A stretch of DNA of 47,426 nt from a virus (lineage: Duplodnaviria; Heunggongvirae; Uroviricota; Caudoviricetes): positions 1 through 47,426 of IMG/VR virus record IMGVR_UViG_2778261504_000010; one strand, given 5' to 3'. Below are positions 21,499-45,726 of the stretch, piece after piece. Made by a program: the position numbers and the translations under genes. Each line of letters begins with the position of its first letter. The stretch's first letter is position 1. The notes below the pieces were generated by a model, which worked only from the letters and a program-made list of their open reading frames with translations, did not search any database and was not told the DNA's origin.

Positions 21499-21532
21499 AT
21501 ATCAGACGGCCCGGAAGACCGGGCCGCTGTGG

Positions 21533-22353: not shown

Positions 22354-22374
22354 TTGTGCAAAACCTTAAAAAAA

Positions 22375-22557: not shown

Positions 22558-22570
22558 AACCCGTCCCGCA

Positions 22571-24072: not shown

Positions 24073-24097
24073 AAGTGTCTCCTTTTTCTGAGGCCCA

Positions 24098-24565: not shown

Positions 24566-24620
24566 GATGGCGTCTCCGGTAGTAACTTACTGTTATTATA
24601 GCCATACATGATCGCCTGTA

Positions 24621-24660
24621 CAGACCACAAAAAAGCCCCTGCAAGGCAGGGGCTAAACTA
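24621..24660 (-). terminator. rho-independent terminator after the secreted-protein gene
   Basis: Stem gcccctgc/gcaggggc (24635-24653) followed on minus strand by TTTTTTG. Confidence 0.55.
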
Positions 24661-24664
24661 AGTC

Positions 24665-25141
24665 TTATTTAGTCAGGTCTAGAATAACCAGGCCTTTTCT
24701 TGATTCTATTTGCTCTTTACCAAAAACAAACGAATCAAAACAATCCATACGATATTCTTTAAACTGATTTCTTGAACGTTCCAGAAACTGCCTGTCATCC
24801 CTGATAACGTTAGACCAGTAATCCTGTAGCTGGTTTTTCATTTTTATGCAGGAACCATACACAGGATCAAGCGGGTCGTCCCCCAGTTTACTGGCCTGTT
24901 CATCCAATTGTTTTAGTCCTTTTTTGATATTCTTCCACTCTTCAATATTTCCCTGCTGATACTGCGATGCAGCTTCTGGCATAGCGTAATAAAGTTTTCC
25001 ACTTTCCCGAAGCATCTGTTCAGCCAATGGCTTCATATCCTGATAACGTTTCAGTTCCTTTTGCGCCTGTTCCTCTGTCTGTGCCAGCACAGAACAAGAG
25101 AAAATAACCCCTACTAAACAAAACAACCATTTTTTCATCAT
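24665..25141 (-). CDS. secreted protein of unknown function (AT-rich cargo gene)
   Basis: 158 aa; N-terminal signal peptide MMKKWLFCLVGVIFSCSVLA; visibly AT-rich compared with neighbours. Confidence 0.6.
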   Translation of the reverse strand: MMKKWLFCLVGVIFSCSVLAQTEEQAQKELKRYQDMKPLAEQMLRESGKLYYAMPEAASQYQQGNIEEWKNIKKGLKQLDEQASKLGDDPLDPVYGSCIKMKNQLQDYWSNVIRDDRQFLERSRNQFKEYRMDCFDSFVFGKEQIESRKGLVILDLTK

Positions 25142-25536
25142 TGATTTCTCCTTCTTGAATCTTTAACCAGCGCCACCATCACCCCAAAAAGCTGTTCATC
25201 CGTCAGCCATTCGATCACATGTTGCTTATACATGTGAGATGCCAGTCCTTCTGCATACGCCCAGGAACGACCTGCATCAGCCAGCAACGCTTCAATTTTG
25301 GATAATACTGATTTTCTGCTCATTGCAACATGAGGGCGGCGACCTTTACCAGCGGGTGCCTTGCGCGGGAATCCCTGTTCGTGCATGTATTCCCGGATGA
25401 TGCGCAGTTCATCGAGATTGCAGCGTGTGGTGCTGGTTTTACCGGTCAGGCGGGCCAGCGTCTGGCGATAAAGGGCATCATCCCACCCCAGATACGCCTG
25501 ACCAGCTTTAATGGCCCCGATCATCTTTTTCAGCAT
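25138..25536 (-). CDS. GemA-like protein (Mu gp16 family)
   Basis: Start taken at internal MLKKMIGAIKAGQAYLGWDD; resembles GemA family as recalled. Confidence 0.55.
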   Translation of the reverse strand: MLKKMIGAIKAGQAYLGWDDALYRQTLARLTGKTSTTRCNLDELRIIREYMHEQGFPRKAPAGKGRRPHVAMSRKSVLSKIEALLADAGRSWAYAEGLASHMYKQHVIEWLTDEQLFGVMVALVKDSRRRNQ

Positions 25537-25786
25537 GTTTGTTATCCTCAAAACGCACGGTAAAACGTGAAACGCCAATCCCTGACAAGAACGCAGCGGC
25601 ACGGTCAAGAGACAACCACGTCTTGTAATCGCCACGGCGTTCCTGTAGAAAATAGGACACACCGGCGCGGCGATTCACAGCGAAGAGGTGATACACACCA
25701 CCGAACCGCTGCACGACGAACTCATCCACGCCACCGCTTTCAGCCTGTTGCCGAAAGGCTGCCATTCCGATTTGTTCAATCTTCAT
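25508..25786 (-). CDS. hypothetical protein
   Basis: ORF-track start at 25795 is a TTG; first ATG at 25786. Confidence 0.35.
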   Translation of the reverse strand: MKIEQIGMAAFRQQAESGGVDEFVVQRFGGVYHLFAVNRRAGVSYFLQERRGDYKTWLSLDRAAAFLSGIGVSRFTVRFEDNKHAEKDDRGH

Positions 25787-25940
25787 AATGACCAAAACAC
25801 TACTTTTGGCAGACCAAAAAACATGTTTTGGTCTGCATTTGATTACTGTTTAAACAACCCGCGAAATCAGGAACGTCGAGTTACGGTGATGGCTTTCATC
25901 GTGTTGTTGCTCCGTGATTCAGAAAATTTCATGCCGGGCC

Positions 25941-26351
25941 TCAGTATGTGAAATAGACAGTTGCCACGCCGTTATAGTGATCAAACGACACGGCGTTTAC
26001 CTCATAACTGGCCGGGAGCTTCGAGCCAAGAACGTATCCGGGCCACGTTTTCCATGGAATTTCTCTGCTCTCACTGTCGCCATATACCGTACATCCCAGT
26101 GAGCCTACAGCTTCATAAGAACGCTTACCGCACGTTATGAACCCCAGATGTTGCTTACTGCCCTTAACAGAAATCGGGAGAGCACTGGCTGATGCGTTAG
26201 CAGCATCCCGCTCCTGTTGGCTTGCGATATTCGCAGAGTTCGCAGCAGCTGCGGCAGCAGTGGTTGCAGCGGTAGATGCCACAATAACTGCTGAAGCCTG
26301 CGCCTGCTGGGTAATGGTCAGCAATGCCGCCACAAAAATCATTTTCTTCAC
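25941..26351 (-). CDS. secreted protein of unknown function
   Basis: 136 aa; signal peptide MKKMIFVAALLTITQQAQA then Ala/Thr-rich low-complexity linker and Cys-containing C-terminal domain. Confidence 0.6.
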   Translation of the reverse strand: MKKMIFVAALLTITQQAQASAVIVASTAATTAAAAAANSANIASQQERDAANASASALPISVKGSKQHLGFITCGKRSYEAVGSLGCTVYGDSESREIPWKTWPGYVLGSKLPASYEVNAVSFDHYNGVATVYFTY

Positions 26352-26546
26352 CTGGTACCTCCTTTACATACTGTCATCGTACTGCGTACCCTTTCTTCCG
26401 CCTGTTCTGTGACGCGGTAGGCTTACGATTTACGGTAAAAGCCACCTGACCAAATGGATGGAGCACCGCTGTCTTATGGTTGCTGATAACCAGCGACACC
26501 ATACACACAGGTCGCTGTAAAAGAAGTCGTATTGCTTTACGGTTTT

Positions 26547-26861
26547 TCATCTGATTATTCCCCCTGAAACCAGCCCTGAACGGATTACTGTTTTTGCAAT
26601 ATGTGCCCGTAATTGCTGTGTTCCGTGATATTTGATTGCCACATCGCGTAACTTATTAACCAGTTCCCTGACCTGATGCTCCTTTGCTCCCGGTGTCACC
26701 GGAACGCCCCCTGTTTTCCGATACTCCTGAAGCTCCAGCAGAGACTGCCGTAAGAGCGTCCACCATTCGCTGTCTGCAACCGGCCCCATATCAAGCGCTC
26801 TGTCAGCATCGGCAATCAGTCTGGTCAGGCTCTTATCGCTTATTCTGGTTTGCTGGTTCAC
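26547..26861 (-). CDS. hypothetical protein
   Basis: 104-aa ORF in early region. Confidence 0.4.
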   Translation of the reverse strand: MNQQTRISDKSLTRLIADADRALDMGPVADSEWWTLLRQSLLELQEYRKTGGVPVTPGAKEHQVRELVNKLRDVAIKYHGTQQLRAHIAKTVIRSGLVSGGIIR

Positions 26862-27148
26862 TGCGCCGCCTCCTGCTCATTTTTTTCACTCCGGTATACC
26901 AAAATCACGACATCTCCCCGGGTAATTACGCGTGCCGGGTCGCCCTGTTGCATACGGTCAATATCAAAAGCGTCATTAAACGCATTTAGTGCCTTCACGC
27001 GCTTGTCTTTGCGGCGACGTTTTTCACATTGCTTAAAGAACGAAGAAATCAACCACCTGAATGACATAAAAGTGATATAGCCATAACCAATAAGCGCCAG
27101 ACCTGTATTCATGGCTACATCTATCGTTATCGTTTTATCAATGACCAT
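26858..27148 (-). CDS. small membrane protein
   Basis: 96 aa with one hydrophobic helix (LALIGYGYITFMSFRWLISSFF). Confidence 0.4.
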   Translation of the reverse strand: MVIDKTITIDVAMNTGLALIGYGYITFMSFRWLISSFFKQCEKRRRKDKRVKALNAFNDAFDIDRMQQGDPARVITRGDVVILVYRSEKNEQEAAQ

Positions 27149-27368
27149 TGCCAGCCTCCTGTTTTGCCACTTTAAACGCCCGTAACATCGGGACAGTCTT
27201 GCCGGTGATAACAGTTCTCATTAAAAGACCGCCACCGCTCTCATGGTGCACTTCAGGGGCTACAAACAACGCCGCATCCACAACCCGGTTATAGCGGCGA
27301 AACTCCCAGAGCCAGCAGGTAACAATGATTTTTGCTTTAGTCCCATAGTTATAAAATTCAATATTCAT
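27138..27368 (-). CDS. hypothetical protein
   Basis: 76-aa ORF, overlapping start/stop with neighbours. Confidence 0.35.
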   Translation of the reverse strand: MNIEFYNYGTKAKIIVTCWLWEFRRYNRVVDAALFVAPEVHHESGGGLLMRTVITGKTVPMLRAFKVAKQEAGNGH

Positions 27369-27592
27369 TTGCAGTTAAACCTCCTTTTGTGACGTTCTAC
27401 AGCGGCTTTCATGGCGTTGTGTACGGTTCTTTTAATAATCCGGTGTCCCGCACTGTCATAGAACCGCCACCGGGAAGCCCCCGGATATTTAGGGAACTCA
27501 ACCGCCGCGCTACCGTCATTCATCCTGTATTCGTGGCGTTCTCCGGGAGGCTGGTATATTGCTTCGGTAACACTGAGAAGTTTAAAAGCCAT
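27365..27592 (-). CDS. hypothetical protein
   Basis: 75-aa ORF. Confidence 0.35.
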   Translation of the reverse strand: MAFKLLSVTEAIYQPPGERHEYRMNDGSAAVEFPKYPGASRWRFYDSAGHRIIKRTVHNAMKAAVERHKRRFNCK

Positions 27593-27594
27593 CG

Positions 27595-28305
27595 TTATCC
27601 CCTCCCCAGTGCCAGCGGTCTGTTGCTCTGACCATTAACCCCCTGATGCAGCCTGGCGTTCTTCCCGGCGATAAAACCGGCAGTAGCGGCAAACTCTGCA
27701 CCCCGACACGCTTTAGCTGTGCGCATATCCCCGTCGCGCAGTCCCTTAGTGCTGTGCAGGTTCTTTCTGTAAAGCTCAAGGCGGCTTTTTTCTTCCGGGG
27801 AGACGTCATACACCGCAATGACATCACGGGCACCAAAGACCCAGCCTTCGCAGAACTGGTCGCCACGGGCCACCCGCGTGGACGGACCGCAACGTTTGCA
27901 GTGTTTATCCTGATATTTTTTACGTTCAGCCATCATCTGACGGGAAAGCACATCAAACGCGTATGCCGCAATTTCCGGGCGGCTGTCAGGACCATAAAAA
28001 CGAACGTAACGTTTGAGTGAACCAGAAGCCCGGTATTCACCTGAGATGTAACACTCGACGCCGAAGGCTTTACATACCAGGTCACACAGGATGTGCATAT
28101 AACGCGGCGGCGTACTGGCATCACTCGGCGCACCCGCGCTGGCAGCTTCCTGAATGTCGAACAATTCCGCGTCGTTTTCGCTGATGCCATGCTGGCGCAT
28201 ATAAGCCTGGGCTTTTGCAATAGCGTTAGCGGCTTCTTCCGGGCTTGATGTTCCTCTGGCAAGGCGTAACAGTTTTTTGATTTTGGCAATGTATTTATCT
28301 TTCAT
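27595..28305 (-). CDS. DUF2786-like phage protein
   Basis: 236 aa; N-terminus KIKKLLRLARGTSSPEEAANAIAKAQ resembles the motif of that family as recalled; Cys-rich centre. Confidence 0.45.
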   Translation of the reverse strand: MKDKYIAKIKKLLRLARGTSSPEEAANAIAKAQAYMRQHGISENDAELFDIQEAASAGAPSDASTPPRYMHILCDLVCKAFGVECYISGEYRASGSLKRYVRFYGPDSRPEIAAYAFDVLSRQMMAERKKYQDKHCKRCGPSTRVARGDQFCEGWVFGARDVIAVYDVSPEEKSRLELYRKNLHSTKGLRDGDMRTAKACRGAEFAATAGFIAGKNARLHQGVNGQSNRPLALGRG

Positions 28306-28392
28306 GGTTGTAACTCATTGTTTTTGATCAACTTATAACCACAAAACACTTGTCATAATCGCTGCCCCAACATACCAATCAGGAGTTAAAAA

Positions 28393-28611
28393 ATGATTGA
28401 TGATGAAATTGCGGCAGCAATTACTGCTAACAAAGCTGCGTGGAGCTTTCTGGTTAAACAGCTTTCAGAAAATGGCTGTCTGAACCTCAGCGCCCTGGAT
28501 TCTGAATTACGCAACTTCCAGCACGGCCTTCAGGAACGTGGGGAGTTCGTTCTGGCTGCGGCGCTGGATGAACATCTGCTGTCGATTGAGAACTGGTCGC
28601 AAGACGATTAA
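28393..28611 (+). CDS. small acidic protein encoded antisense to the early operon
   Basis: 72 aa; RBS AGGAG 7 nt upstream of ATG; followed by a terminator hairpin. Confidence 0.5.
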   Translation: MIDDEIAAAITANKAAWSFLVKQLSENGCLNLSALDSELRNFQHGLQERGEFVLAAALDEHLLSIENWSQDD

Positions 28612-28688
28612 AACAAACGATTGTCAGATTAATTTCGCGGGCGAACTTTTTTTGCTTAGCGATATTCATAAATAAACTCTCTCTGATT

Positions 28689-28730
28689 CAGGCGTAAGCC
28701 AGCCCCGGCGGGTTTACGCCTGTTTTAAAT
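28689..28730 (+). terminator. rho-independent terminator
   Basis: Stem caggcgtaa/ttacgcctg (28689-28722) followed by TTTTAAAT. Confidence 0.55.
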
Positions 28731-28751
28731 AACAATTGAAAACAAATTAAA

Positions 28752-28943
28752 TTAATGCGGTGCTTTCAGTGTTTCGATTTTAACGAAATAAGGCTCGACA
28801 TTAATTTCAACCACACAACCACATTTAAAATCTCTGGCGGGTGCAACAGTTTTTACCACCCGACCACCACGCACCGCCCGGTGTGCAATGTGCATGAAAC
28901 GAGTACCTGGCGGATATAGCTGATTAAAGCGTTTCGCGTTCAT
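28752..28943 (-). CDS. hypothetical protein
   Basis: 63-aa ORF. Confidence 0.3.
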   Translation of the reverse strand: MNAKRFNQLYPPGTRFMHIAHRAVRGGRVVKTVAPARDFKCGCVVEINVEPYFVKIETLKAPH

Positions 28944-29157
28944 GAGGCGGCTTCCATCCTTTCAGGTGAGCATTAGCACAGAACTCTGCCCGGTGTTCTG
29001 CCCAGATACGACGCAGGGTGCTACACGGGCTTTGCGCTGCCTTACGCCACAGTTTTTCTGCCTCGTCATAATCGCCACGTTGTTCTGCTCTGGATGCACC
29101 CAGCGAATACGCCGCGCAACTATTTCCGGCTCTGTACTCTTTGATATCCTGATGCAT
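28924..29157 (-). CDS. hypothetical protein
   Basis: Start taken at MHQDIKEY just after the upstream stop; the longer ORF-track version overlaps the upstream gene by 110 nt. Confidence 0.35.
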   Translation of the reverse strand: MHQDIKEYRAGNSCAAYSLGASRAEQRGDYDEAEKLWRKAAQSPCSTLRRIWAEHRAEFCANAHLKGWKPPHERETL

Positions 29158-29158
29158 G

Positions 29159-29803
29159 TTAAACCCCTGCAATATCAAGCGGGATTGAGCGGTATTCAGC
29201 AGAATCACCGACGCGCTCATACACGCGGATATAGCTTCTGCTGCCAACCACCTGGACGGCTTCACCAATCAGTTTCATGGCGTTATCCCAGCGTTCCTCC
29301 GTAATATCGAGACGACGCAGAGCCAGAACGCGCCCGGTGTTAATGTTGCCTTCCTTGTCCGTGCTGAATGCCTCGCTGATGATGGCTTTAATTTCAGGGC
29401 GTGCTCCTTCCGTCCAGTCAGCCAGACAGTCATCAATCAGTGCCTTCGCGGTCTGAATGCGTTCATCAAGCGCGATACGGTCCTGCATGGCGCGCTGAAT
29501 CTTGTAACGTCCGTCAAAGCTGTAAAGCGTGATATTCCCTTTTTTACCGCCTTTCACAGCGCCGTATTTCTCCGCCGACAGGTCAATAAACGCCTGAATA
29601 TCACCAAACGCACGCAGTTTCAGTTCACGCAGTGAGGCGGAGGCAGCAATCACCATCTCCACAAGCTCACCGACCAGCTGCTCGCGGTCACGGTCAATAT
29701 CTTTGATAAGGCTTTCAGGTGTCATTACGCCACGGGCATCCACCCAGTAACCTTCAGGCGCTTGAGTTTTCGTGTATTGCTTAACTTTATTTTCAGTCGT
29801 CAT
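29159..29803 (-). CDS. DUF3164-like phage protein
   Basis: 214-aa ORF; family assignment from memory only. Confidence 0.45.
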   Translation of the reverse strand: MTTENKVKQYTKTQAPEGYWVDARGVMTPESLIKDIDRDREQLVGELVEMVIAASASLRELKLRAFGDIQAFIDLSAEKYGAVKGGKKGNITLYSFDGRYKIQRAMQDRIALDERIQTAKALIDDCLADWTEGARPEIKAIISEAFSTDKEGNINTGRVLALRRLDITEERWDNAMKLIGEAVQVVGSRSYIRVYERVGDSAEYRSIPLDIAGV

Positions 29804-29832
29804 AATTAAATTACCTCAGTGATATTTACAGA

Positions 29833-30048
29833 TTAATGTGTGTTATGCGCGCAGGGTTCCACGCCAACAGAAAATAAATCAACGACGTTAAATTCTTTAT
29901 TAAGAGTTTGATTCATTACCTCCCATAACCGTTGTCTTACACCGACCTCTTCATCCGTAAATCCTTTTTTATCAATAGCCCCCATACTCCTGACACGAAG
30001 CGTGCCGTTTTCATCGGTATAGATAATTACTTCTAACTTAACCGCCAT
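29833..30048 (-). CDS. hypothetical protein
   Basis: Start taken at MAVKLEV. Confidence 0.35.
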   Translation of the reverse strand: MAVKLEVIIYTDENGTLRVRSMGAIDKKGFTDEEVGVRQRLWEVMNQTLNKEFNVVDLFSVGVEPCAHNTH

Positions 30049-30229
30049 GTTTTTCTCCTTTGAAATCAAACGATTTAAAAATAATTTCGTTCATAAAACA
30101 GTGAGTTTTTATGATAATGTCGGAAACCTGCTCTCCCGTGACATCAGGCGGCAACTGATACGTCGCGACGGTTTTCTCCGGTTTACCTGGCCTGTCCAGG
30201 CTGAAAGTTAATTCAAGCTCCAGTGACAT
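30038..30229 (-). CDS. hypothetical protein
   Basis: 63-aa ORF. Confidence 0.3.
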   Translation of the reverse strand: MSLELELTFSLDRPGKPEKTVATYQLPPDVTGEQVSDIIIKTHCFMNEIIFKSFDFKGEKHGG

Positions 30230-30239
30230 TTTTCACCTC

Positions 30240-30491
30240 TCAATGCATTTGTGTCTCTTGAGGAATATACGGACATCCCTGTGCCAGTTGTTTCACGTAG
30301 TCATGGTAGATTTGCAGATCAAGCCGTTCATTTCCGTGTTTCTCCTTCAGAACCGTACAAATAGCACCGACAGTCCCCAGAGTTCTTGCTGCTTCTTCGA
30401 GTGTGGCATTGTCGCCATTTTCCACCCGAATAAGGTTATGGCACTGGTTATTACCCAGGTCGGTAAATACTATTGTTAATTTCACGCTCAC
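30240..30491 (-). CDS. hypothetical protein
   Basis: 83-aa ORF. Confidence 0.35.
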   Translation of the reverse strand: MSVKLTIVFTDLGNNQCHNLIRVENGDNATLEEAARTLGTVGAICTVLKEKHGNERLDLQIYHDYVKQLAQGCPYIPQETQMH

Positions 30492-30506
30492 TTTTAATTC
30501 CTCGTT

Positions 30507-30746
30507 TTATTGCCATACGACGGTGCAGCCGTCGATACAGGACGTTTTAACCACACGACGCAGGCCGCTGAATGTCTGGATGATTTCCGTTACCGGCCAT
30601 ACAGGACCCCCCACGGGCGGGCAGGCATAAACCACAGGTAAACGGTGATGCTGTCCCGTTACACGGCCACCGGTGGTGTGGATGGCCACACGGGCACGGG
30701 AACGGACGGCGTTAATGGTCTGCTTGTCCATCGTCTTGTTCTCCAT
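30507..30746 (-). CDS. hypothetical protein
   Basis: 79-aa ORF; start overlaps stop of MuB-like gene. Confidence 0.35.
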   Translation of the reverse strand: MENKTMDKQTINAVRSRARVAIHTTGGRVTGQHHRLPVVYACPPVGGPVWPVTEIIQTFSGLRRVVKTSCIDGCTVVWQ

Positions 30747-31639
30747 CAGTGAATTAACATTTCTGCGAAATCATCAATAGCCTGCACACTGACCGGCGCA
30801 TCGCTGATATCACAAATCCGGTAGACCCCACGCACAAGTTTAAACAGGCGTCGGGCATTGCCCCGTGAGCGTGTGTAAAGTGCTTCACAGATTTCAGGCG
30901 CTGCTGCTTCCGGCATCAGTTCGGCGGCTATCTGGATGAAATCCTTCTGCGCCAGCGTATCGCCGAGGTCCAGCGAAAGAGCCACCCGACTGTATAGCTG
31001 CGCGAACTCCCCACGATTGCCTTTAAGATTAATCAACAGGCGCGGCATACCAGCCAGGGCAACACCGACGCCCGCCTTGTCATGCAGACGACGCAGAACT
31101 TCCAGCGCACGATAGGGGAGCAGTTCGGCTTCATCCACCATCAGCAGGCGACCGGAGTCACGCAATTCGTGTACGCAGGCATTAATCAGTTCGTGAATAT
31201 TGCCGCGAACCTTTACCCCCAACTGGCGGCACAGTTCCTCCAGCAGTGTCCTGGCTGTATAGCCCGGGTCAGCCTCAATCAGTATTGCGTCCCGGTTTCT
31301 GGCGGCGTATTCGCGCAAAATCATTGTTTTGCCAAGACCTGCCGCGCCATACAACACGCTAATTTCACACTCCAGATGAGCATAGGCCAGCGCCTCCAGC
31401 CCTTTGGCGGCCATACCTGTAGTCACAAAACTTGCTTTTACACGCCGGTTGTTTTCTTTTTCCCGTTCACGGCTGACAAAGGCAGAAATTCGCTCTTCGA
31501 TATCAGTGATATCGCCCTGATATTTACCCTGCAAATACTGGTTGATAACGGCGCTGCTACGACCAATAGCACGGGCAACGTGGGTCTGCGTATAGCCGCG
31601 ACGGGCCATTACGTCATTTAATTGCGTAATTAAACTCAT
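30746..31639 (-). CDS. MuB-like transposition ATPase
   Basis: 297 aa; N-terminal HTH-like segment then Walker A GAAGLGKT; immediately downstream of transposase. Confidence 0.8.
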   Translation of the reverse strand: MSLITQLNDVMARRGYTQTHVARAIGRSSAVINQYLQGKYQGDITDIEERISAFVSREREKENNRRVKASFVTTGMAAKGLEALAYAHLECEISVLYGAAGLGKTMILREYAARNRDAILIEADPGYTARTLLEELCRQLGVKVRGNIHELINACVHELRDSGRLLMVDEAELLPYRALEVLRRLHDKAGVGVALAGMPRLLINLKGNRGEFAQLYSRVALSLDLGDTLAQKDFIQIAAELMPEAAAPEICEALYTRSRGNARRLFKLVRGVYRICDISDAPVSVQAIDDFAEMLIH

Positions 31640-31656
31640 ATTAAATACCTTTTAAA

Positions 31657-33702
31657 TTAACGGTTGTTTGTGCCGTCTTTCTTTAAATTGCGGTCACGCT
31701 CGGATGCAAAGAAATAAAGTTCTTCTTTTTTCTTTTCCTCCTTACGCTCCAGACCAAATCCAAAATTAAAGTCAGGTCTCTGCGTAATAGCCGGGGTAAG
31801 CTCGCGTTTAGCCTCTTCGATTTTCTGCGTGGCCCGTGCAATGCGGCCTCTGGCGCGTTTCTCCTGCTGCTGTTCGATAACAGCTTTCGGGAACGCATCA
31901 ACCTTATTACCGTTCCAGATGGCATCGCAGATATAAGAACCGTCCATCCGCCTGACAATCACGCTGTTTGCGTCGTGAATGTCGTAACAAACCCTGACTT
32001 CATTTCCGTGCTCTGCTGCCAGTTCTGTGGAGAAATAGATGTTTCTGAATAACACCACTTCACCGCGTCGCACCGTGCAGATGCTTTCCGGTCGGAACAT
32101 TTCATGCAGTTCTTCCGGCGACAGCATGTCGATTTCAGCCTTTTGCTCTTTTATCAGTTTCCGGCGATACGCTGCCGGGCTGTAATGTTCGCCATCCTCT
32201 TTGCGGGGAAGGCTGCTGTGTGGCCGGTTGTTATACCGTTTCACCTCCAGCTCTATTGCGGCCATCAGTTGCTCAAAAGTGGGGACTTCTCCCATCGCTT
32301 TAACCTGCCGCTTTGTCAGCTCTTTCCCTTTGTGGGTGGCCTTAATGGCTGACTGTGTGATGCGTTGCTGCATCATCACCGTTTCCTTGTCTGCATTTTT
32401 TGAGCAGTACGTCTGGAAACTCAGGGCCACATCTTTGGGTATTCCTTTGTTTGCCCGTTCTATTACCCCGCGCCCCTGCGGGTTACCAGGTGTCCCCGTG
32501 TGATGCTCCACACCCAGCCGGGGCAGAATCCCGGTAATATCGGCATCAAGCACCCGGTTTTTTTCACCGCCCCCGTTATCGGAGTAATAAATCAGCGGTA
32601 TTCCGTGTTGTGACATGCCATGACGCAATGCATCAGCAACGGCTATCACGTTCTCCGACAGGGACAGCGACCAGCCCACAATAAAGCGTTGCCCCGCATC
32701 CATAACCAGCGTCACTTCTGGCCGGAATGTATTCCCGGTGGCAGGGTTGAATGCCATCAGTTTCATACAGTGACCATCCCCGACCCATACCGCATTAACC
32801 GGTAATGTGCTCCAGTCGCGCCGCACAAAGGGATTGAGCGAACGCCAGGCTGAACCGGTGGAGCGGAAACGCTCTTTAACAATCACCGGGACGCTGCTTA
32901 ACACCCGTCTTACTGCGTGAACTGAAGGCAGTGCCGCCAGCATTCCCGCATCGTTCGCGTGTTTTTCATGCCACCAGGCTGAAAACTCGCGATACGCATA
33001 TTCAACGGTCGGGCGCTTCCATGAGCGATAGAACATAAAGAAATCGCTCAACCACCAGACCTGCTCCCACGGTGTTCCCTTATGATGACCGGGAGCCAGT
33101 AACGCCAGTAACTGATTGGCATCACCGCGCGCCATCAGCCAGGCGGAATACCATTCCTGTAAACTCCCTGTACTGACGCCAGTTCGCTTACCCTGTCGGG
33201 CATTGGCGGTATTACCGGCCACAATAACGCGCTCGGGCAAAGCCCCCTGGCGGATACCATCAACGATGTGTTTTATCGCTGCTGTCCTGGACATTCCTGC
33301 GTATTCACGCAGTTTATGCACTTCGGTAGCCAGCAATATCCGCGCATCAGCGATGGCCTTTTGCTTGTCGGTCAGTGCCTGGACTTCGCGTAATGCCAGT
33401 TCCGGGCATTTGACCATCACTTCCAGTTCATCACGAACGGTGACGTTCTTAACTGCCTTCTGCTCAACCACAACGGGCAGTTGTGTATCTTCCAGAATTT
33501 GCTGGGCTAGACGTTGGTGTAAAGCTTTCTGCACCTCCTCTGGAAAACTATCAATATGGTATTCAAAAGTAACACCTTTCACGCCAGCTCGTTGGCGGCT
33601 AACCCACCGTTGACGCTTTGCCATTCTAATCAGTGAGCTATTGTGTTTGGGGATACCAGCAATGCCCTGAAGTTCATTGAATGAATACCATTGGGATATC
33701 AT
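31657..33702 (-). CDS. MuA-like DDE transposase
   Basis: About 680 aa; N-terminus resembles the Mu winged-helix DNA-binding domain; start taken at MISQWYSF whose ATG overlaps the ner stop. Confidence 0.85.
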   Translation of the reverse strand: MISQWYSFNELQGIAGIPKHNSSLIRMAKRQRWVSRQRAGVKGVTFEYHIDSFPEEVQKALHQRLAQQILEDTQLPVVVEQKAVKNVTVRDELEVMVKCPELALREVQALTDKQKAIADARILLATEVHKLREYAGMSRTAAIKHIVDGIRQGALPERVIVAGNTANARQGKRTGVSTGSLQEWYSAWLMARGDANQLLALLAPGHHKGTPWEQVWWLSDFFMFYRSWKRPTVEYAYREFSAWWHEKHANDAGMLAALPSVHAVRRVLSSVPVIVKERFRSTGSAWRSLNPFVRRDWSTLPVNAVWVGDGHCMKLMAFNPATGNTFRPEVTLVMDAGQRFIVGWSLSLSENVIAVADALRHGMSQHGIPLIYYSDNGGGEKNRVLDADITGILPRLGVEHHTGTPGNPQGRGVIERANKGIPKDVALSFQTYCSKNADKETVMMQQRITQSAIKATHKGKELTKRQVKAMGEVPTFEQLMAAIELEVKRYNNRPHSSLPRKEDGEHYSPAAYRRKLIKEQKAEIDMLSPEELHEMFRPESICTVRRGEVVLFRNIYFSTELAAEHGNEVRVCYDIHDANSVIVRRMDGSYICDAIWNGNKVDAFPKAVIEQQQEKRARGRIARATQKIEEAKRELTPAITQRPDFNFGFGLERKEEKKKEELYFFASERDRNLKKDGTNNR

Positions 33703-33914
33703 AAGTATCTCTCCGGCCATATAGTTTCTGGCGACTCGCCAAGAGCTTCAGCGATAATTTTTTCTCCACGCGGATACGGCTTATCAAGAGCATTTTTCAA
33801 AGTGTACGGGGATAACGAGTTAAGCCTCCCTAAACCTGAAAGTGATAACCCTTTTTTTCGTAATTCAGCAATGACATCAGCTCGATGCCATCCGGTTCTT
33901 TTCTTGTGCTGCAT
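33699..33914 (-). CDS. Ner-like DNA-binding regulator
   Basis: 71 aa; WHRADVIAELRKKGLSLSGLGR...LKNALDKPYPRGEKIIAEALG closely resembles Mu Ner/Nlp. Confidence 0.8.
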   Translation of the reverse strand: MQHKKRTGWHRADVIAELRKKGLSLSGLGRLNSLSPYTLKNALDKPYPRGEKIIAEALGESPETIWPERYL

Positions 33915-34120
33915 TTCATGCCATCCTTATGAGTTAACTAGATAGCTACCTACACAAGTAGCTATAAGGCTACTTCGCAACAATAATGTGATTGCGTTGT
34001 GATTGCAAGCAAAAGCAACCACAAAAAATAGAATTTTTCTGCGCACTCTTGTTGCTTATTGATATTTAAGGTTTTTTGTGATTGCCGAAATATTGAGTCT
34101 GGCAATCATAAGGAGAGGAT
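33915..34120. promoter_or_regulatory. divergent promoter/operator region between ner and the c-like repressor
   Basis: 206 bp AT-rich; GTGATTGC at 33988, 33999, 34078; 7-bp inverted repeat gattgcc(34080-86)/ggcaatc(34101-07); palindrome tagctac...gtagcta (33942-33965). Confidence 0.55.
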
Positions 34121-34525
34121 ATGATTGCCAACAAAGAGTGGTTTACTGCACAAGAATTAGCCAACTTAGGACTACCTGGCTTCCCTAAAGATAAAAGTGG
34201 GATAAATCGTCGCGCCAACAAAGAAGGGTGGTTACGAAGGCAAAAAGCAAATGTTCGAGGGATCGCTTATGAATTTCATATTTCAGCCTTACCAATGGAA
34301 GCCCAACAAGTACTGGGGAACACTTCAGGTGTAGTTGGTGCTTCTATTGACATGGAGCTTTTAGAAAAGCTCATTGAATCAGTTGAGATTCTTTTAACTA
34401 AAAAACGAAAAAAAATGGAGCCACGAGAAAAAGCCAAGCTCATATCCATGTTGTACAAAGCATGTAAAAAATCAGACTCTATTGATGATGAAATTATCAG
34501 TAATATCATAGAATTAGTTGCATGA
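34121..34525 (+). CDS. c-like repressor (Mu-type winged-helix DNA-binding domain)
   Basis: 134 aa; WFTAQELANLGLPGFPKDKSGINRRANKEGWLRRQKANVRGIAYEFHISALPMEAQQVL parallels the N-terminus of the adjacent transposase; divergent from ner. Confidence 0.55.
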   Translation: MIANKEWFTAQELANLGLPGFPKDKSGINRRANKEGWLRRQKANVRGIAYEFHISALPMEAQQVLGNTSGVVGASIDMELLEKLIESVEILLTKKRKKMEPREKAKLISMLYKACKKSDSIDDEIISNIIELVA

Positions 34526-34540
34526 CAGAGAGGAACATTC

Positions 34541-35170
34541 ATGTCAAATGATAATGTGAGCAAATTCCCTACCACAAAAGGAAAAAAACTGATTGATGAG
34601 ATTATGGCCCAAATAGATCAGGAACCAGATATTGCAGTTCCTAGCAATATCAACAACCTGAGTATTTCAGGTACTGGAAACATTATAGGAAACAATAACA
34701 TACTACACATACAACAACCCGTCCCGCCCAAAAAGAAAGTTATTGTAAAGACAGGTGATGGTGTAATTAACGCTACTCAAAAGGCTCATTTGCAAGAACT
34801 TGTTAGGACGTTAGTTGAAATTCATACACAAGTAAAAAAGAGCAAACTGTCTTGGGGAGGCGCATGGAAAAAGATCTTAATCCCTTTAAAAATAAGTAGT
34901 TATCATGAAATCCCTAGCGTTCTCTATGAAAAAGCAGTCAAAATTCTGCAAAAAGAAATTGCTATCATAAAAAATATGAATTCTGCACCAAAGAAAGTTA
35001 GCAATTGGCGCTCATTGCAAATTAAAGCCATTCAAGCTCGTTGTAATGAACGAGGTTTACAAACTTGGCGTAAGGACTACATGCAAACTCATTTCGGTAA
35101 AGACTCGATGACTAAACTTACGGATAAAGAGCTACAAGCCTTGTACCGTGCTGTCATGGGAAAACGCTGA
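34541..35170 (+). CDS. hypothetical protein (AT-rich cargo gene downstream of repressor)
   Basis: 209-aa ORF, no hydrophobic segment, Lys/Asn/Ile-rich; no family recognised. Confidence 0.5.
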   Translation: MSNDNVSKFPTTKGKKLIDEIMAQIDQEPDIAVPSNINNLSISGTGNIIGNNNILHIQQPVPPKKKVIVKTGDGVINATQKAHLQELVRTLVEIHTQVKKSKLSWGGAWKKILIPLKISSYHEIPSVLYEKAVKILQKEIAIIKNMNSAPKKVSNWRSLQIKAIQARCNERGLQTWRKDYMQTHFGKDSMTKLTDKELQALYRAVMGKR

Positions 35171-35459
35171 TGGTTTTATAGGCCAAGAACCCTTGGCCTT
35201 ATCTAATTGATACAATCAACCCGATCTAAATCATCATAATCATCTTAAAGCCTGCTTGGTTAAATGTATTAAAAACAACCTAAGTTTGCTGCATAATCTG
35301 AGCAAATTCACCCAGAAAAAAACGTAAAAAAAAGCATTTTTGCGCATTTTCTTCAAAACGATCCAGAATCGGTGAAATCTCCCACATCCCGCACCAATCA
35401 AGGCCTACAGGCTTATATTGACTGCTCGGACTCAGCCCAGAATTGATCACCACCCCACA
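35171..35459. mobile_element. Mu-like prophage terminal region (transposase-binding end) and junction with host
   Basis: Non-coding; AAAACG/CGTTTT-type motifs at 35321-35370; element ends ...ccaca at 35459, where the ynfF reading frame breaks. Confidence 0.5.
35181..35205 (+). terminator. terminator-like hairpin after the 209-aa gene
   Basis: Stem ggccaag/cttggcc (35181-35198) followed by T-rich ttatctaatt. Confidence 0.4.
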
Positions 35460-36586
35460 CAACCCTGACAAATATAAGCAGGTTTTGCTGAACCGATCTC
35501 TCGTGCCAACTGGATAATTTTTTCTGCCGGGATGCTGGTGATTTTTGCTGCCCATTCCGGCGTTTTAGCTATGCCGTCAGGCCCTTCGCCCAGAATATAG
35601 GCTTTATAATGCGCGTTACGTGGTGCGTTGGCGGGCAGCGTTTTTTCATCGTAACCAACACAATATTTGTCGAGAAATGGCTGATCGACCATGTTTTCAG
35701 TAATCAGTACCCAGGCAATCGCACAGGCCAGTGCGCCATCGGTGCCAGGGCGAATGGGCAGCCATTCATCTTCACGCCCGGCAGCAGTGTCGTTATAACG
35801 TGGATCGATGACGATCATGCGTGCGTTTGAACGTTCGCGGGCTTGCTCGACGTAGTAAGTGACACCACCGCCGCTCATCCGCGTTTCTGCCGGGTTATTT
35901 CCGAACATAACGACCAGTTTCGTATTGGCGATATCATCCGGGCTGTTGCCATCATTGGCACCGAACATATAACTCATTGCGGCACTGATCTGTGCGGTAC
36001 TGTAGCTGCCATAGCGACTGAGAAAACCACCGCAAGAGTTCATCAGACGGTACGGGACGTTTGAGTTGGTGATGTTTCCGCCATCTACGCCTGTTCCGTA
36101 CAGGACATGTACAGCCTCATTGCCGTAATCTTTCAGGATCCGCCGAAGATTATCACTGATGGTATCCAGGGCTTCGTCCCAACTTATCCGTTCAAATTTA
36201 CCTTCACCGCGCTTGCCGACGCGCTTCATGGGATATTTCAACCTATCAGGATGATTCATCCGTCGGCGGATAGAGCGCCCGCGTAAACACGCTCGAACCT
36301 GATGGTTACCGTAGACGTCGTCACCTGTCGTATCAGACTCCACCCAGTACACGGTGTCATCTTTCACATGCAAACGTAACAGACAGCGGCTCCCGCAGTT
36401 AACGGTGCAGGAACTCCAGACCGCTTTCTCTTCTACCGGAGCCTCTGCCGCCCGGACCATTTGGGAAAATGGCAGAGTGAAAGCACTGCTTGCCAGCGCA
36501 AGACTGCCAAGTGCGGAGGTTTTCATCAGACTTCTACGGCTGATTTCAGCCTTCATGAGCGCCTCTGTGGTATGGATTTTCATCAT
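35450..36586 (-). pseudogene. ynfF: ynfF', 5' fragment of DMSO-reductase-family catalytic subunit truncated by the prophage
   Basis: 378 aa with Tat motif SRRSLMK; paralogous to the full-length downstream gene up to ...AKPAYICQG, then CVGW-stop where the paralogue continues WGPQRQ. Confidence 0.75.
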
Positions 36587-36643
36587 TACTCACTTATTGC
36601 TTTTCAAACAAAATGTCATGCCAGAATTTATGGTTGTCGTGGG

Positions 36644-39070
36644 TTATATTTTTTCGATCTCGACCAGATTAGTGTGCTGCGGGTTTCCCTTCGCCAGTGG
36701 TGAAGGGCGCAGAGTGGTTAGCGTATTCACACAGCCGCCATGGTCGATTTTATCGCCAGACATATTGGCCTCGTGCCAGGCTCCCTGGCCCATAGCGCTA
36801 ACTCCAGGGAGAATACGTGGTGTTACTTTGGCTGGTAGCCGAACTTCGCCACGATGGTTAAACACCCGCACCATATCGCCGTTGGCAATCCCACGTTTCT
36901 GCGCATCTATAGGGTTGATCCACACCTCCTGACGGCAGGCAGCCTTCAGGAGATCAATATTGCCGTAGGTCGAGTGAGTACGGGATTTGTAATGGAAACC
37001 AAACAGTTGCAGTGGGAAGGTTCTACGTTCAGGGGAGTTCCAGCCTTCAAAGGTTGAGGCATAAACTGGCAATGGGCTTATCACTTCATCTTTTTCCAGT
37101 TCCCAGGTACGGGCAATTTCCGCCAGCCTGCTGGAATAAATTTCAATCTTACCGGAAGGCGTTTTAAGTGGATTTGCCTCGGGGTCGTCACGAAATGCTT
37201 TGTAGGCGACAAAATGGCCATTGGGATCTTTACGCTTATAGATACCCATTTTTTTCAGTTCGTCGTAAGACGGTAACGCCGGATCTTTGGCAAGCATTTT
37301 GGCGTACAGATGTTGTAACCATTGTTCCTGCGTGCGACCTTCTGTGAACTTTTGATAGACGTCAGGTCCAAGACGTTTCGCGACTTCACTCAGGATCCAG
37401 TAAATCGGTTTGCGTTCGAATTTTTCGCTGGTGACAGGCTGGAGGAAAATGAGATATCCCATGTTACCGGCGTAGTCGTTAGGAATAATATCTTCCTGCT
37501 CAACGGTCATCAGGTCTGGCAGCAGAATGTCGGCATATTTTGCCGATGAGGTCATAAAGTTTTCGATGATCACAATCATTTCGCATTTCGATTCGTCCTG
37601 CAGAATTTCATGCGTTTTGTTGATGTCAGAATGCTGATTAACGAGGGTATTTCCCGCGTAGTTCCAGATGAACTTAATGGGCACATCCAGTTTATCTTTG
37701 CCGCGGACGCCGTCGCGGATTGCCGTCATTTGCGGACCATGATCGATAGCATCTGTCCAGCTGAAGCAGGAGATTGACGTTTTGACCGGATTATCCAGCA
37801 CCGGCAGGCGTTCTATGGTAATGGTATAGGTCGATTCACGCGCGCCACTATTTCCGCCGCTGATGCCGACATTGCCCGTCAAAATAGGTAACATAGCAAT
37901 AGCGCGTGCAGTCAGTTCGCCGTTTGCCTGGCGTTGCGGCCCCCAGCCCTGGCAGATATAAGCGGGTTTTGCTGTGCCAATTTCACGCGCCAGTTTGATG
38001 ATACGGTCTACCGGGATACCGGTAATTTGCGAAGCCCACTGCGGCGTTTTCGCTGTGTTATCATCACCTTCACCAAGAATATAGGCTTTATAGTGACCAT
38101 TTTTGGGTGCATCTGCGGGTAAGGTTTTTTCGTCATAGCCGACGCAGTATTTATCGAGAAAAGGTTGATCAACGAGATTTTCGTTAATCAATACCCAGGC
38201 AATACCCGCAACCAGCGCGGCATCGGTGCCCGGGCGAATAGGGAGCCATTCATCTTCACGACCAGCAGCCGTATCGGTATATCGCGGATCGATAACAATC
38301 ATTTTGGCGTTCGATTTCTCGCGCGCTTTTTCAAGAAGATAAGTGATGCCAACGCCGCTCATGCGGGTTTCTGCCGGGTTGTTACCAAACATCACGACCA
38401 GCTTGCTGTTTTCAATATCCGTGGTGCTGTTGCCATCATTACTGCCGTAGGTGTAGGGCATGGCACAGGAAATTTGCGCGGTGCTGTAGGAGCCATACTG
38501 ATTGAGTGAACCGCCGTAGCAGTTCATCAGGCGTTTGACCGCCGAGGCTGATGGCGAAGAGCGGGTCATATTGCCGCCAACAATCCCCGAAGAGTACTGA
38601 ATATATACAGCCTCATTGCCATATTGTTCGACGGTTTTTTTCAGGCTACTGGCGATAGTATCCAGGGCTTCATCCCAGCTAATCCGTTCGAATTTGCCTT
38701 CACCGCGTGTACCCACGCGTTTCATTGGGTAATTCAAGCGATCGGGATGATTAATACGCCGGCGGATGGAGCGACCGCGCAAACAGGCGCGTACCTGATG
38801 GTTGCCGTACTCATCGCTGCCGGTATTGTCAGTTTCCACCCAGGTCACTTCATTATCTTTAACATGTAGACGAAGTGCACAGCGGCTACCACAGTTGACG
38901 GAACAGGCACCCCAGATCACTTTTTCGCTGGCCTGTTGTACCGTTGCCGCTGCACTGCGCAGGGTGAACGGTAAAGAAAAACCGCCTGCAGCCAGCGCCA
39001 GAGAACCTATCGCGGTTGATTTAACGAGTGTTCTGCGGCTGATGCCCACCATTCGGTCATTTTTGGACAT
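36644..39070 (-). CDS. ynfE: DMSO/selenate reductase-family molybdoenzyme catalytic subunit
   Basis: 808 aa; Tat signal SRRTLVK; Cys cluster CSVNCGSRC; promoter-proximal of the ynfEF pair. Confidence 0.85.
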   Translation of the reverse strand: MSKNDRMVGISRRTLVKSTAIGSLALAAGGFSLPFTLRSAAATVQQASEKVIWGACSVNCGSRCALRLHVKDNEVTWVETDNTGSDEYGNHQVRACLRGRSIRRRINHPDRLNYPMKRVGTRGEGKFERISWDEALDTIASSLKKTVEQYGNEAVYIQYSSGIVGGNMTRSSPSASAVKRLMNCYGGSLNQYGSYSTAQISCAMPYTYGSNDGNSTTDIENSKLVVMFGNNPAETRMSGVGITYLLEKAREKSNAKMIVIDPRYTDTAAGREDEWLPIRPGTDAALVAGIAWVLINENLVDQPFLDKYCVGYDEKTLPADAPKNGHYKAYILGEGDDNTAKTPQWASQITGIPVDRIIKLAREIGTAKPAYICQGWGPQRQANGELTARAIAMLPILTGNVGISGGNSGARESTYTITIERLPVLDNPVKTSISCFSWTDAIDHGPQMTAIRDGVRGKDKLDVPIKFIWNYAGNTLVNQHSDINKTHEILQDESKCEMIVIIENFMTSSAKYADILLPDLMTVEQEDIIPNDYAGNMGYLIFLQPVTSEKFERKPIYWILSEVAKRLGPDVYQKFTEGRTQEQWLQHLYAKMLAKDPALPSYDELKKMGIYKRKDPNGHFVAYKAFRDDPEANPLKTPSGKIEIYSSRLAEIARTWELEKDEVISPLPVYASTFEGWNSPERRTFPLQLFGFHYKSRTHSTYGNIDLLKAACRQEVWINPIDAQKRGIANGDMVRVFNHRGEVRLPAKVTPRILPGVSAMGQGAWHEANMSGDKIDHGGCVNTLTTLRPSPLAKGNPQHTNLVEIEKI

Positions 39071-44430: not shown

Positions 44431-45726
44431 TTAATTTTTCATTGATTCGTTATGGGGCATGGTTGGGGCAAACTCGCTTAACTGTGTATTTAACAAAGCT
44501 ACCTGTGCATTATTGTTTTCAGACATCCATTTTCCGTATACCTGAAATACCATTTGCGCATCTGCATGGCCCATCTGGTTTGCTATAAATGCCGGGTTAG
44601 CACCAGCTGTCAGCGACCAGCAGGCATAAGTATGTCTCGACTGATATGATTTGCGGTGGCGGAGGCCAGCGCGCTTTATCGCTGCGTCCCACATCTGCCT
44701 TATTGAGTCAACGGTAAAATGGTCACCATAATTTTTTACTCTCACTGACACTTCAGGTTGAAAAACAAAGGTGCATTTTTGTTTTTCTGTTCTGCCGAAC
44801 TCTCTGAGGTGAACGTCAATAATATGTTCTTTGCTCAGCCTCGTTAGTGTCATCTGACTCCTGAGAGCGTCGATTGCAGGCTTGATAAGGTGAATTACCC
44901 GATTGGTACCAGCCTGTGTTTTCGGTACCGTAAAACGATCTTTTGCTAAATTTCTCCTGATCATCATTGTTCCATTTTTCAGATCTATGTCCTCCCACCC
45001 AAGCGCACACAGTTCACCAGGGCGAATGCCTGTATAAACAGAAACACACCATAAATTTTTGGCCTGCTGATTTCTGCAGGCATCGATAAGACGGATAAAT
45101 TCCTCCCGTGAAAGAGGATCAGGAATGGTTCTTGATTCCTTTAATGGCGAGATCCCCTTAAACGGATTATCTGCCAGGTAACCGTTATCAACACCAAACT
45201 GGAACACGGCGTAAAGATTTGTCATGTAATTATTTACGGTGACAGCCGATCTCCCCGGTTGTGTAACAATATAATTACTTTTTGGGATCTGGTATCCAGT
45301 AAGTAACTCTTTACGTACCGCCAGCAATTTTTCTTTATTAATCGACGATGCAAGATTTTTTTCACCGATTATGCTCAGAATATTTTTGATGACGGCACGG
45401 TACGTGTTGAGTGACGTTTTTGCGACTTCCGTTTCTTTCAGTGCCAGAAATTTTTCAGCCAGTTCCTTTATGGTTAAATCTTGTCGGGCCTCACCAAATT
45501 TTTCCAGATTGTGTGAGGAGGGAAACTGTTTTGCATAGTCGAAAACGCCGGTTTTTATTGCATAACAAACAGAGGCGCGCAGCTCACCTGCAATGCGCCT
45601 GTTTTTTGTCGTGTCAGGAACCCCCAGATTTTCCCTGACTCTTACACCTTTATAAACAAACCAGATACGTAATTTCCCTCCATGGTTTTCCACGCCTGTC
45701 GGATATTTCATTTTAGCTTCTCTCAT
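44431..45726 (-). CDS. tyrosine-type phage integrase
   Basis: C-terminal catalytic region with HTYACW and GHADAQMVFQVYGKW; true start may be the internal MKYPTG. Confidence 0.8.
   Translation of the reverse strand: MREAKMKYPTGVENHGGKLRIWFVYKGVRVRENLGVPDTTKNRRIAGELRASVCYAIKTGVFDYAKQFPSSHNLEKFGEARQDLTIKELAEKFLALKETEVAKTSLNTYRAVIKNILSIIGEKNLASSINKEKLLAVRKELLTGYQIPKSNYIVTQPGRSAVTVNNYMTNLYAVFQFGVDNGYLADNPFKGISPLKESRTIPDPLSREEFIRLIDACRNQQAKNLWCVSVYTGIRPGELCALGWEDIDLKNGTMMIRRNLAKDRFTVPKTQAGTNRVIHLIKPAIDALRSQMTLTRLSKEHIIDVHLREFGRTEKQKCTFVFQPEVSVRVKNYGDHFTVDSIRQMWDAAIKRAGLRHRKSYQSRHTYACWSLTAGANPAFIANQMGHADAQMVFQVYGKWMSENNNAQVALLNTQLSEFAPTMPHNESMKN

What the first reader, a model, noticed from the sequence alone, without database searches (positions are those of the whole stretch)
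35440..36586. Mu-like prophage has inserted into ynfF, truncating one DMSO-reductase paralogue
The minus-strand ORF 35450..36586 tracks its paralogue ynfE to ...AKPAYICQG and then ends after four unrelated codons at the prophage end. The rest of ynfF should lie beyond the other prophage end, outside the window, flanked by a short target duplication. ynfE, and the ynfGH genes presumably downstream of the prophage, would be uncoupled.
Basis: partly seen in the sequence, partly recalled or inferred. Interest (0 to 1): 0.55.

Follow-up and report, generated by a model that had tools for sequence, protein, structure and literature searches.

The report
Mu-like prophage inserted in ynfF
A transposable (Mu-like) virus about 37 kb long has landed in the middle of the E. 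coli gene ynfF and cut it roughly in half; this is an ordinary, strain-specific gene knockout by a mobile phage.

Summary
The minus-strand ORF 35447..36586 is ynfF, base-for-base identical to intact ynfF up to nucleotide 1124 of 2424. It then continues into four foreign codons (C-V-G-W) and a stop. The break (35459|35460) falls exactly on the left terminus (5'-TGTGGGG...) of a Mu-like transposable prophage that fills window 1..35459. The same terminus abuts unrelated host genes at about ten other sites in other E. coli genomes.

The window is a whole draft contig (NLVD01000026.1, GCA_002510325.1). It ends inside collagen-like tandem repeats of a phage tail-fibre gene, roughly 1.3-2.9 kb short of the expected right end. 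The 3' half of ynfF and the target duplication therefore could not be seen, and I could not find the partner contig.

The predicted repeat here is GTTG.

The consequences are inferred. YnfF is inactivated, and ynfGH-dmsD is separated from the ynfE promoter. No complete E. coli genome (of 5,426) carries this insertion, and only about 4 draft contigs do.

Verdict: a real, ordinary insertional knockout of low interest.

The parts
35447..36586 (-). Truncated ynfF ORF. It has 379 aa from the upstream ATG, 378 aa from the annotated MKIHTT start at 36583, and was called as 369 aa by the public gene caller. It keeps the Tat signal peptide, the Fe4S4 domain and about half of the molybdopterin domain; the Molydop_binding domain is lost.
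35460..36583 (-). Native ynfF nt 1-1124, 100% identical to intact ynfF alleles.
35460..35463 (-). GTTG (CAAC on the + strand): the host bases next to the phage end, and the predicted copy of a 4-bp target-site duplication.
   Evidence: Inferred from 4-bp duplications in five related insertions. The second copy lies outside the window.
35447..35459 (-). Phage-derived tail of the ORF. The T of codon TGT, then GTG GGG TGG TGA, gives C-V-G-W-stop.
1..35459 (-). Mu-like transposable prophage with its left (repressor/transposase) end at 35459. The right end is missing beyond window position 1. Genes run in the same direction as ynfE-ynfF.
35171..35459 (-). Left-end non-coding region. The terminus is 5'-TGTGGGGTGGTGATCAATTCTGGGC, and three same-orientation TTCTGG motifs (35437-35442, 35363-35368, 35312-35317) are presumed transposase-binding sites.
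   Evidence: The binding function is inferred.
34541..35170 (+). 209-aa ORF with no Pfam match, in the variable immunity region. It was useful as a marker for this phage.
34121..34525 (+). Repressor-like gene carrying a Mu DNA-binding domain (HTH_Tnp_Mu_1), transcribed towards the left end.
33699..33914 (-). Ner-like small DNA-binding protein (HTH_35), the first gene of the early operon.
31657..33720 (-). MuA-type transposase (HTH_Tnp_Mu_1, a weak rve core match, Mu-transpos_C). It is at most 48% identical to any deposited phage transposase.
30746..31639 (-). MuB-like AAA+ ATPase.
1..782 (-). 5' part of a second tail-fibre gene that runs off the contig. Positions 1-147 are 54-nt collagen-like (G-X-Y) tandem repeats, which explains the contig break.
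36644..39070 (-). Intact ynfE (808 aa), the first gene of ynfEFGH-dmsD, immediately upstream of the disrupted ynfF.

Best explanation
A complete or nearly complete Mu-like (transposable) temperate phage of about 37 kb integrated by DDE-transposase strand transfer into codon 375 of ynfF, the second gene of the E. coli ynfEFGH-dmsD operon.

Shown:
- The left phage terminus is joined to ynfF nt 1124.
- The ORF now ends after four phage-encoded codons.
- The phage has MuA/MuB-type transposition genes, a Mu-type regulatory left end, and Mu-type head and tail genes.
- The same phage ends are found at many unrelated host sites, each flanked by a 4-bp duplication.

Inferred:
- The right phage end, about 1.3-2.9 kb beyond window position 1, is joined through a repeated GTTG to ynfF nt 1121-2424, followed by ynfG, ynfH and dmsD.
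- The 374-residue YnfF stub lacks half of its molybdopterin domain and the whole C-terminal dinucleotide-binding domain, so it is non-functional.
- About 37 kb of repressed prophage separates ynfGH-dmsD from the ynfE promoter. Intact YnfE therefore loses its co-transcribed Fe-S and membrane-anchor partners unless an internal promoter exists.
For: - Breakpoint: 100% identity to intact ynfF for nt 1-1124 and divergence from nt 1125. Host match runs 35460..37000. Relatives' prophage match ends at 35458-35461.
- Phage identity: Pfam HTH_Tnp_Mu_1 plus Mu-transpos_C transposase, AAA_22/TniB-like ATPase, HTH_35 Ner-like protein and an HTH_Tnp_Mu_1 repressor. Also Portal_Mu, Phage_Mu_F, Mu-like_Pro, Mu-like_gpT, Mu Gp45/GP46/Gp48 and Mor.
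- Mobility: an identical left terminus at at least 5 other host flanks for the same phage. Related prophages occur in 59 complete genomes at different loci. The right end ...GAAGTTACA abuts different host DNA in L001-L009.
- Target duplication: AATC, GGTG, CGAA, ATAT and GATG in five independent insertions. Empty-site reconstructions match 296/296 nt without gaps.
- The junction is real: the Logan assembly is 100% identical across it.
- Operon context: E2863 has ynfE-ynfF-ynfG-ynfH-dmsD; see also PMC5203670 and PMC12096835.
Against: - The right junction was never observed. The contig ends in a tail-fibre repeat.
- The predicted junction sequence was absent from the three scannable collections, which do not hold this assembly. 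Predicted fusion ORFs are not on record.
- Other assemblies show inconsistent joins at the same collagen-like repeat. Rearrangement between prophage fibre genes, or a Mu-mediated adjacent deletion, therefore cannot be excluded.
- No expression data exist, and the simple scan found no convincing terminator or promoter.
Confidence: 0.82

Rival explanations
1. The phage did insert into ynfF, but the locus was later rearranged, so the phage right end is no longer next to the ynfF 3' half. This could be a Mu-type adjacent deletion or inversion, or homologous recombination between the collagen-like tail-fibre genes of this prophage and the inversely oriented lambdoid prophage that starts at 44431.
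For: - The contig stops exactly in the shared fibre repeat.
- A lambdoid prophage (integrase 44431..45726) sits only 8 kb from ynfE.
- In other assemblies, Mu-like tail genes are joined through this fibre gene to the ydfJ-side end of a lambdoid prophage (L010/L031).
Against: - In three sister assemblies, the same ydfJ-side segment is joined to three different upstream prophages at identical contig coordinates. This looks like assembly ambiguity rather than biology.
- Contigs breaking about 0.2-0.6 kb upstream of the DUF4376 gene is the general rule.
- Five complete-genome relatives are simple insertions with intact duplications.
Confidence: 0.12
2. The junction is an assembly chimera: ynfF is intact in the real genome, and the phage sits elsewhere.
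For: The source is a draft short-read assembly, and the contig ends in repeats.
Against: - The join falls on the exact phage terminus (TG) used at every other insertion. A chimera would need shared sequence, and there is none at the junction.
- An independent assembly gives the identical junction.
- Four contigs carry the truncated product.
Confidence: 0.02
3. The element is a dead prophage remnant, so the event is an ancient fixed pseudogene rather than a recent transposition.
For: The right end is not seen, and the activity of this copy is untested.
Against: - All major early, head and tail ORFs are full length and match relatives of 34-37 kb.
- The ynfF stub is 100% identical to intact alleles.
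- The insertion is absent from 5,426 complete genomes.
- The same phage occurs at several other sites.
Confidence: 0.04

Closest known systems
Bacteriophage Mu (Muvirus) insertional mutagenesis
   Same: - Temperate phage that integrates by DDE transposition at near-random sites and knocks out the target gene.
- Same left-end layout: repressor divergent from ner-A-B.
- TG...CA termini.
- Mor, GemA, and Mu-type portal, F, I, T and baseplate Gp45-48 genes.
   Different: - No megablast similarity to any deposited phage over 25 kb.
- The transposase is below 60% identical to that of every deposited phage, and the best match is 48%.
- Target duplication is 4 bp in five relatives, against 5 bp for Mu and 6 bp for B3 (PMC8705779).
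- The right end carries a collagen-like tail fibre plus a DUF4376 gene. No invertible segment, gin or mom was seen in the relatives examined.
Mu-like phages of other Gammaproteobacteria (Pseudomonas VW-6B, Klebsiella ST405-OXA48phi1.1, Yersinia vB_YpM_5, Mannheimia 3927AP2, Haemophilus SuMu)
   Same: They have the closest transposases (41-48% identity over more than 90% of the length) and a similar genome size of 33-39 kb.
   Different: Similarity is only at the protein level. This is an E. coli-resident lineage, present in 59 of 5,426 complete genomes.
Other natural ynfF inactivations in E. coli
   Same: ynfF is also split in many genomes: by a +1 frameshift in the G5 run immediately after this insertion point (374 + 416 aa), by other frameshifts, and by IS1203.
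   Different: Those lesions are point or IS events that leave the operon contiguous. This one inserts about 37 kb.

Membership tests
Mu-like transposable phages | MuA-type DDE transposase (Mu DNA-binding N-terminus, rve-type core, Mu-transpos_C) | tested here: met
   HTH_Tnp_Mu_1 scores 56 bits and Mu-transpos_C 57 bits, both above cut-off. The rve core scores 23 bits, below its 32.6 cut-off; 41-48% identity to annotated transposases of Mu-like phages.
Mu-like transposable phages | MuB-like AAA+ ATPase immediately downstream of the transposase | tested here: met
   ORF 30746..31639 matches AAA_22 (78 bits) and is TniB-like.
Mu-like transposable phages | Left-end regulatory module: a repressor transcribed towards the end, divergent from a Ner-like gene and the early operon | tested here: met
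   34121..34525 (+) is HTH_Tnp_Mu_1 and 33699..33914 (-) is HTH_35.
Mu-like transposable phages | Defined termini 5'-TG...CA-3' with repeated transposase-binding motifs | tested here: inconclusive
   The left end TG plus three TTCTGG motifs are in the window. The right end ...ACA is seen only in relatives, because this copy's right end lies outside the contig.
Mu-like transposable phages | Many unrelated insertion sites, each flanked by a short duplication of fixed length (5 bp in Mu, 6 bp in B3) | tested here: met
   For the lineage: the sites yigG, alx, tkt and two prophage genes carry 4-bp duplications, and there are further sites. For this copy, the second repeat is not testable.
Mu-like transposable phages | Mu-type late genes (Mor, portal, F, protease I, gpT, Gp45-48) | tested here: met
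Phage Mu proper (close relative of Mu/D108) | Nucleotide-level similarity to Mu and a 5-bp target duplication | tested here: not met
   There is no megablast match to any deposited phage beyond short pieces, and the duplication is 4 bp in relatives.
ynfF (selenate/tellurate reductase catalytic paralogue of the ynfEFGH-dmsD operon) | Sequence identity and position directly downstream of ynfE | tested here: met
   100% identity over nt 1-1124, with ynfE-ynfD-ynfC-speG synteny.
ynfF (selenate/tellurate reductase catalytic paralogue of the ynfEFGH-dmsD operon) | Full-length product with a complete Molybdopterin domain and the Molydop_binding domain | tested here: not met
   only Fe4S4 and profile positions 1-193 of 353 of the Molybdopterin domain remain. 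The gene is a pseudogene fragment.
ynfF (selenate/tellurate reductase catalytic paralogue of the ynfEFGH-dmsD operon) | 3' half followed by ynfG-ynfH-dmsD at the other prophage end | not testable with these tools
   The window is the whole contig, and the partner contig could not be reached.

The most novel reading that the evidence does not exclude
The prophage lies in the same orientation as the operon. Transcription from the anaerobically activated ynfE promoter would therefore run through the ynfF stub into the phage left end, antisense to the repressor genes and sense to ner-A-B. This could make repressor maintenance or induction of this particular lysogen oxygen-responsive. Separately, and much more likely true, this E. 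coli lineage is an uncharacterised transposable-phage group whose transposase uses a 4-bp target stagger.
Probability: 0.07. Interest if true: 0.4.

Novelty: new member of a known kind. Interest (0 to 1): 0.15.

Why it matters
For this strain, the Ynf selenate/tellurate reductase is probably lost. Expression of dmsD, the chaperone needed for DMSO reductase (PMC12096835), may also be reduced. That is a testable but minor metabolic phenotype.

More generally, it is one more example of transposable phages acting as natural mutagens in E. coli. It also documents, as a by-product, an E. coli Mu-like lineage with 4-bp target duplications and no close sequenced phage relative. It opens no major question.

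Tried and rejected
1. Exact look-ups of the truncated product with the two longest starts found nothing. The 369-aa call then identified the source contig.
2. I tried to reach the right junction in several ways:
   - Through its cluster id (P0001) it is on 313 contigs, but only the 24 blocks of the index with the longest contigs are read. Those carry an unrelated frameshift allele.
   - The 385-aa variant (P0003) leads to other frameshift alleles.
   - Four DUF4376 variants (P0031, P0047, P0034, P0035) lead to lambdoid or P2-like prophage ends at other loci.
3. Junction-pattern scans:
   - The first scans assumed a 5-bp duplication, which was the wrong pattern.
   - Scans with the corrected 4-bp pattern found nothing in the viral, metagenome or GTDB-representative collections.
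   - The left-junction pattern was absent from the viral collection.
4. Seven predicted right-end/ynfF fusion ORFs are not in the protein collection.
5. I rejected two alternative end models for the duplication: a right end of GTTAC with 5 bp, and a left end of GTGGGG with 5 bp. Each fails in at least two of the five relatives.
6. The promoter/terminator scan found nothing above chance.
7. I first read the L010 layout (Mu-like tail genes next to ydfJ) as a possible inversion. I downgraded it to probable assembly ambiguity, because sister assemblies join three different prophages at the same point.

Full report
**What is in the sequence**

The minus-strand ORF 35447..36586 encodes 379 aa that end ...REIGSAKPAYICQG-CVGW-stop. 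The paralogue ynfE (36644..39070, minus strand) reads ...AKPAYICQGWGPQRQ at the same point.

Compared with the intact ynfF of E. coli E2863, the window is identical for ynfF nt 1-1124. It first differs at nt 1125, inside codon 375 (TGG becomes TG|T). Megablast of 35000-37000 against 5,426 complete E. coli genomes matches only from 35460 onward, at 100% in many strains. No genome covers both sides of the break.

The truncated product keeps the twin-arginine signal peptide, the Fe4S4 domain and about the first half of the molybdopterin domain. It has lost the rest, including the Molydop_binding domain.

**What interrupts the gene**

Window 1..35459 is a Mu-like transposable prophage. Reading inward from 35459, it contains:
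- a 289-bp non-coding end that begins 5'-TGTGGGGTGGTGATCAATTCTGGGC and carries three same-orientation TTCTGG motifs;
- a 209-aa ORF with no family match;
- a repressor-like gene with the Mu DNA-binding domain;
- a divergent Ner-like gene;
- a MuA-type transposase;
- a MuB-like AAA+ ATPase.

Further in are Mor, Mu-type portal, F, protease I, major head gpT, a sheath, and baseplate Gp45/GP46/Gp48.

Related prophages occur in 59 complete E. coli genomes at different loci, and their similarity to the window stops at 35458-35461. The very same phage, with an identical immunity region and an identical 25-nt terminus, abuts at least five other host sequences in draft assemblies.

No deposited phage resembles it at the nucleotide level. 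Its transposase is at most 48% identical to those of Mu-like phages of Pseudomonas, Klebsiella, Yersinia, Mannheimia and Haemophilus. It is therefore Mu-like in organisation and mechanism, but not a close relative of Mu.

**Is the junction real?**

The window is the entire contig NLVD01000026.1 (47,426 bp) of draft assembly GCA_002510325.1. An independent Logan assembly of run SRR8095837 is 100% identical over 20.6 kb spanning the junction. Four contigs in the public collection carry the 369-aa call of the stub. The join falls precisely on the terminus used at every other insertion, which an assembly chimera would not do.

**The other end**

Window position 1 lies inside 54-nt collagen-like (G-X-Y) tandem repeats of a second tail-fibre gene. 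Short-read contigs break at this repeat as a rule.

In relatives, the right end lies about 80 bp after a DUF4376 gene and always reads ...CCCAGAAAAAAACGCGAAGTTACA followed by host DNA. By comparison with relatives, about 1.3-2.9 kb of prophage is missing from the window.

I could not recover the partner contig:
- The predicted 416-aa 3' fragment exists on 313 contigs, but the contigs that could be read carry an unrelated frameshift allele.
- Other candidate proteins led elsewhere.
- Junction patterns were absent from the three scannable collections, which do not include this assembly.
- Predicted fusion ORFs are not on record.

**Target duplication**

Five independent related insertions in complete genomes are flanked by 4-bp repeats, given the invariant ends TGTGGGG...GTTACA:

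| Site | Repeat |
|---|---|
| yigG | AATC |
| alx | GGTG |
| a prophage baseplate gene | CGAA |
| tkt | ATAT |
| a P2-like tail gene | GATG |

Empty-site sequences rebuilt with a 4-bp duplication match uninterrupted alx and yigG at 296/296 nt without gaps. Models with 5 bp and shifted ends fail in several cases. Mu makes 5 bp and B3 makes 6 bp (PMC8705779).

For this insertion, the expected repeat is therefore GTTG, and the predicted right junction is ...GAAGTTACA|GTTG|GGGGCCACAACG.

**Mechanism and consequences**

Shown: the phage end is joined to ynfF at a transposase-type terminus; the gene is truncated; the lineage is mobile.

Inferred from established Mu biology: after infection, the transposase joined the phage 3' ends to staggered cuts in ynfF, and repair produced the duplication.

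Inferred from the operon literature: ynfEFGH-dmsD is one anaerobically expressed operon. In Salmonella, YnfE is the main catalytic subunit and YnfF contributes little (PMC5203670). dmsD, which is needed for DmsABC maturation, lies downstream of ynfEFGH (PMC12096835).

Loss of YnfF alone is thus probably mild. However, about 37 kb of repressed prophage should separate ynfG, ynfH and dmsD from the ynfE promoter. That would leave intact YnfE without co-expressed partners unless internal promoters exist. A simple scan found no convincing terminators or promoters near the junction.

ynfF is often broken in nature: by a +1 frameshift in the G5 run right after this site, by other frameshifts, and by IS1203. 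This is consistent with the gene being dispensable.

**Rivals**

| Explanation | Confidence |
|---|---|
| Later rearrangement at the locus | about 0.12 |
| Dead prophage remnant | 0.04 |
| Assembly chimera | 0.02 |

A later rearrangement cannot be excluded without the right junction. It could be a Mu-type adjacent deletion or inversion, or recombination with the inversely oriented lambdoid prophage that starts at 44431. The one layout that suggested such an inversion (L010) is probably an assembly ambiguity, because sister assemblies join three different prophages at the same point. The chimera and dead-remnant readings are poorly supported.

**Verdict**

This is a real, precisely mapped, strain-specific insertional knockout of ynfF by a Mu-like prophage. 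It is a new instance of a well-known phenomenon. The main by-products are the 4-bp duplication of this lineage and the absence of any close sequenced phage relative. Interest is low.

Noticed in passing
L036, L037, L038, L042/L043, L044/L045 (relatives); predicted at window 35460-35463: This E. coli Mu-like prophage lineage makes 4-bp target-site duplications (AATC, GGTG, CGAA, ATAT, GATG), not the 5 bp of Mu or the 6 bp of B3. Two cases were verified against empty sites.
   Followed up: yes
window 1-147 and 1-782: The contig ends inside 54-nt collagen-like (G-X-Y) tandem repeats of a tail-fibre gene. The same fibre N-terminus and repeat occur in lambdoid and P2-like prophages. Contigs break there routinely, and sister assemblies (GCA_030188905.1, GCA_030189075.1, GCA_030188995.1) join different prophages at this point.
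   Followed up: partly
L022, L023 (ynfF nt about 1125-1152); next to window 35455-35460: A widespread ynfF allele has a +1 G in the G5 run immediately after this insertion point, splitting the gene into 374 + 416 aa. The 416-aa ORF is on 313 contigs. It could be a real lineage allele or, in some long-read genomes, a homopolymer error.
   Followed up: partly
window 44431-47426: A second, lambdoid prophage begins here, next to rspB at the Qin-type site. It has an integrase (Arm-DNA-bind_2 plus Phage_integrase) and an Rv2179c-like exonuclease gene, and runs off the contig. Its late genes would be in inverted orientation relative to the Mu-like prophage.
   Followed up: partly
window 34121-35170: The immunity region is variable among relatives: megablast covers only about 60% of 31000-35470. 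Here it contains a 134-aa Mu-DNA-binding-domain protein plus a 209-aa ORF with no Pfam family. Relatives carry single genes of 192-225 aa instead.
   Followed up: no
predicted right junction (outside the window): With a 4-bp duplication, the ynfF reading frame would stay open for about 22 codons back into the phage right end, with a TTG start (MAARSPPRIARQLAQKKTRSYS-WGPQ...). With 5 bp it would hit a TAG. No such fusion protein is on record.
   Followed up: yes
window 31657-36586: The prophage early operon (ner, A, B) has the same orientation as ynfE-ynfF. Read-through from the ynfE promoter would enter the phage antisense to the repressor genes.
   Followed up: no
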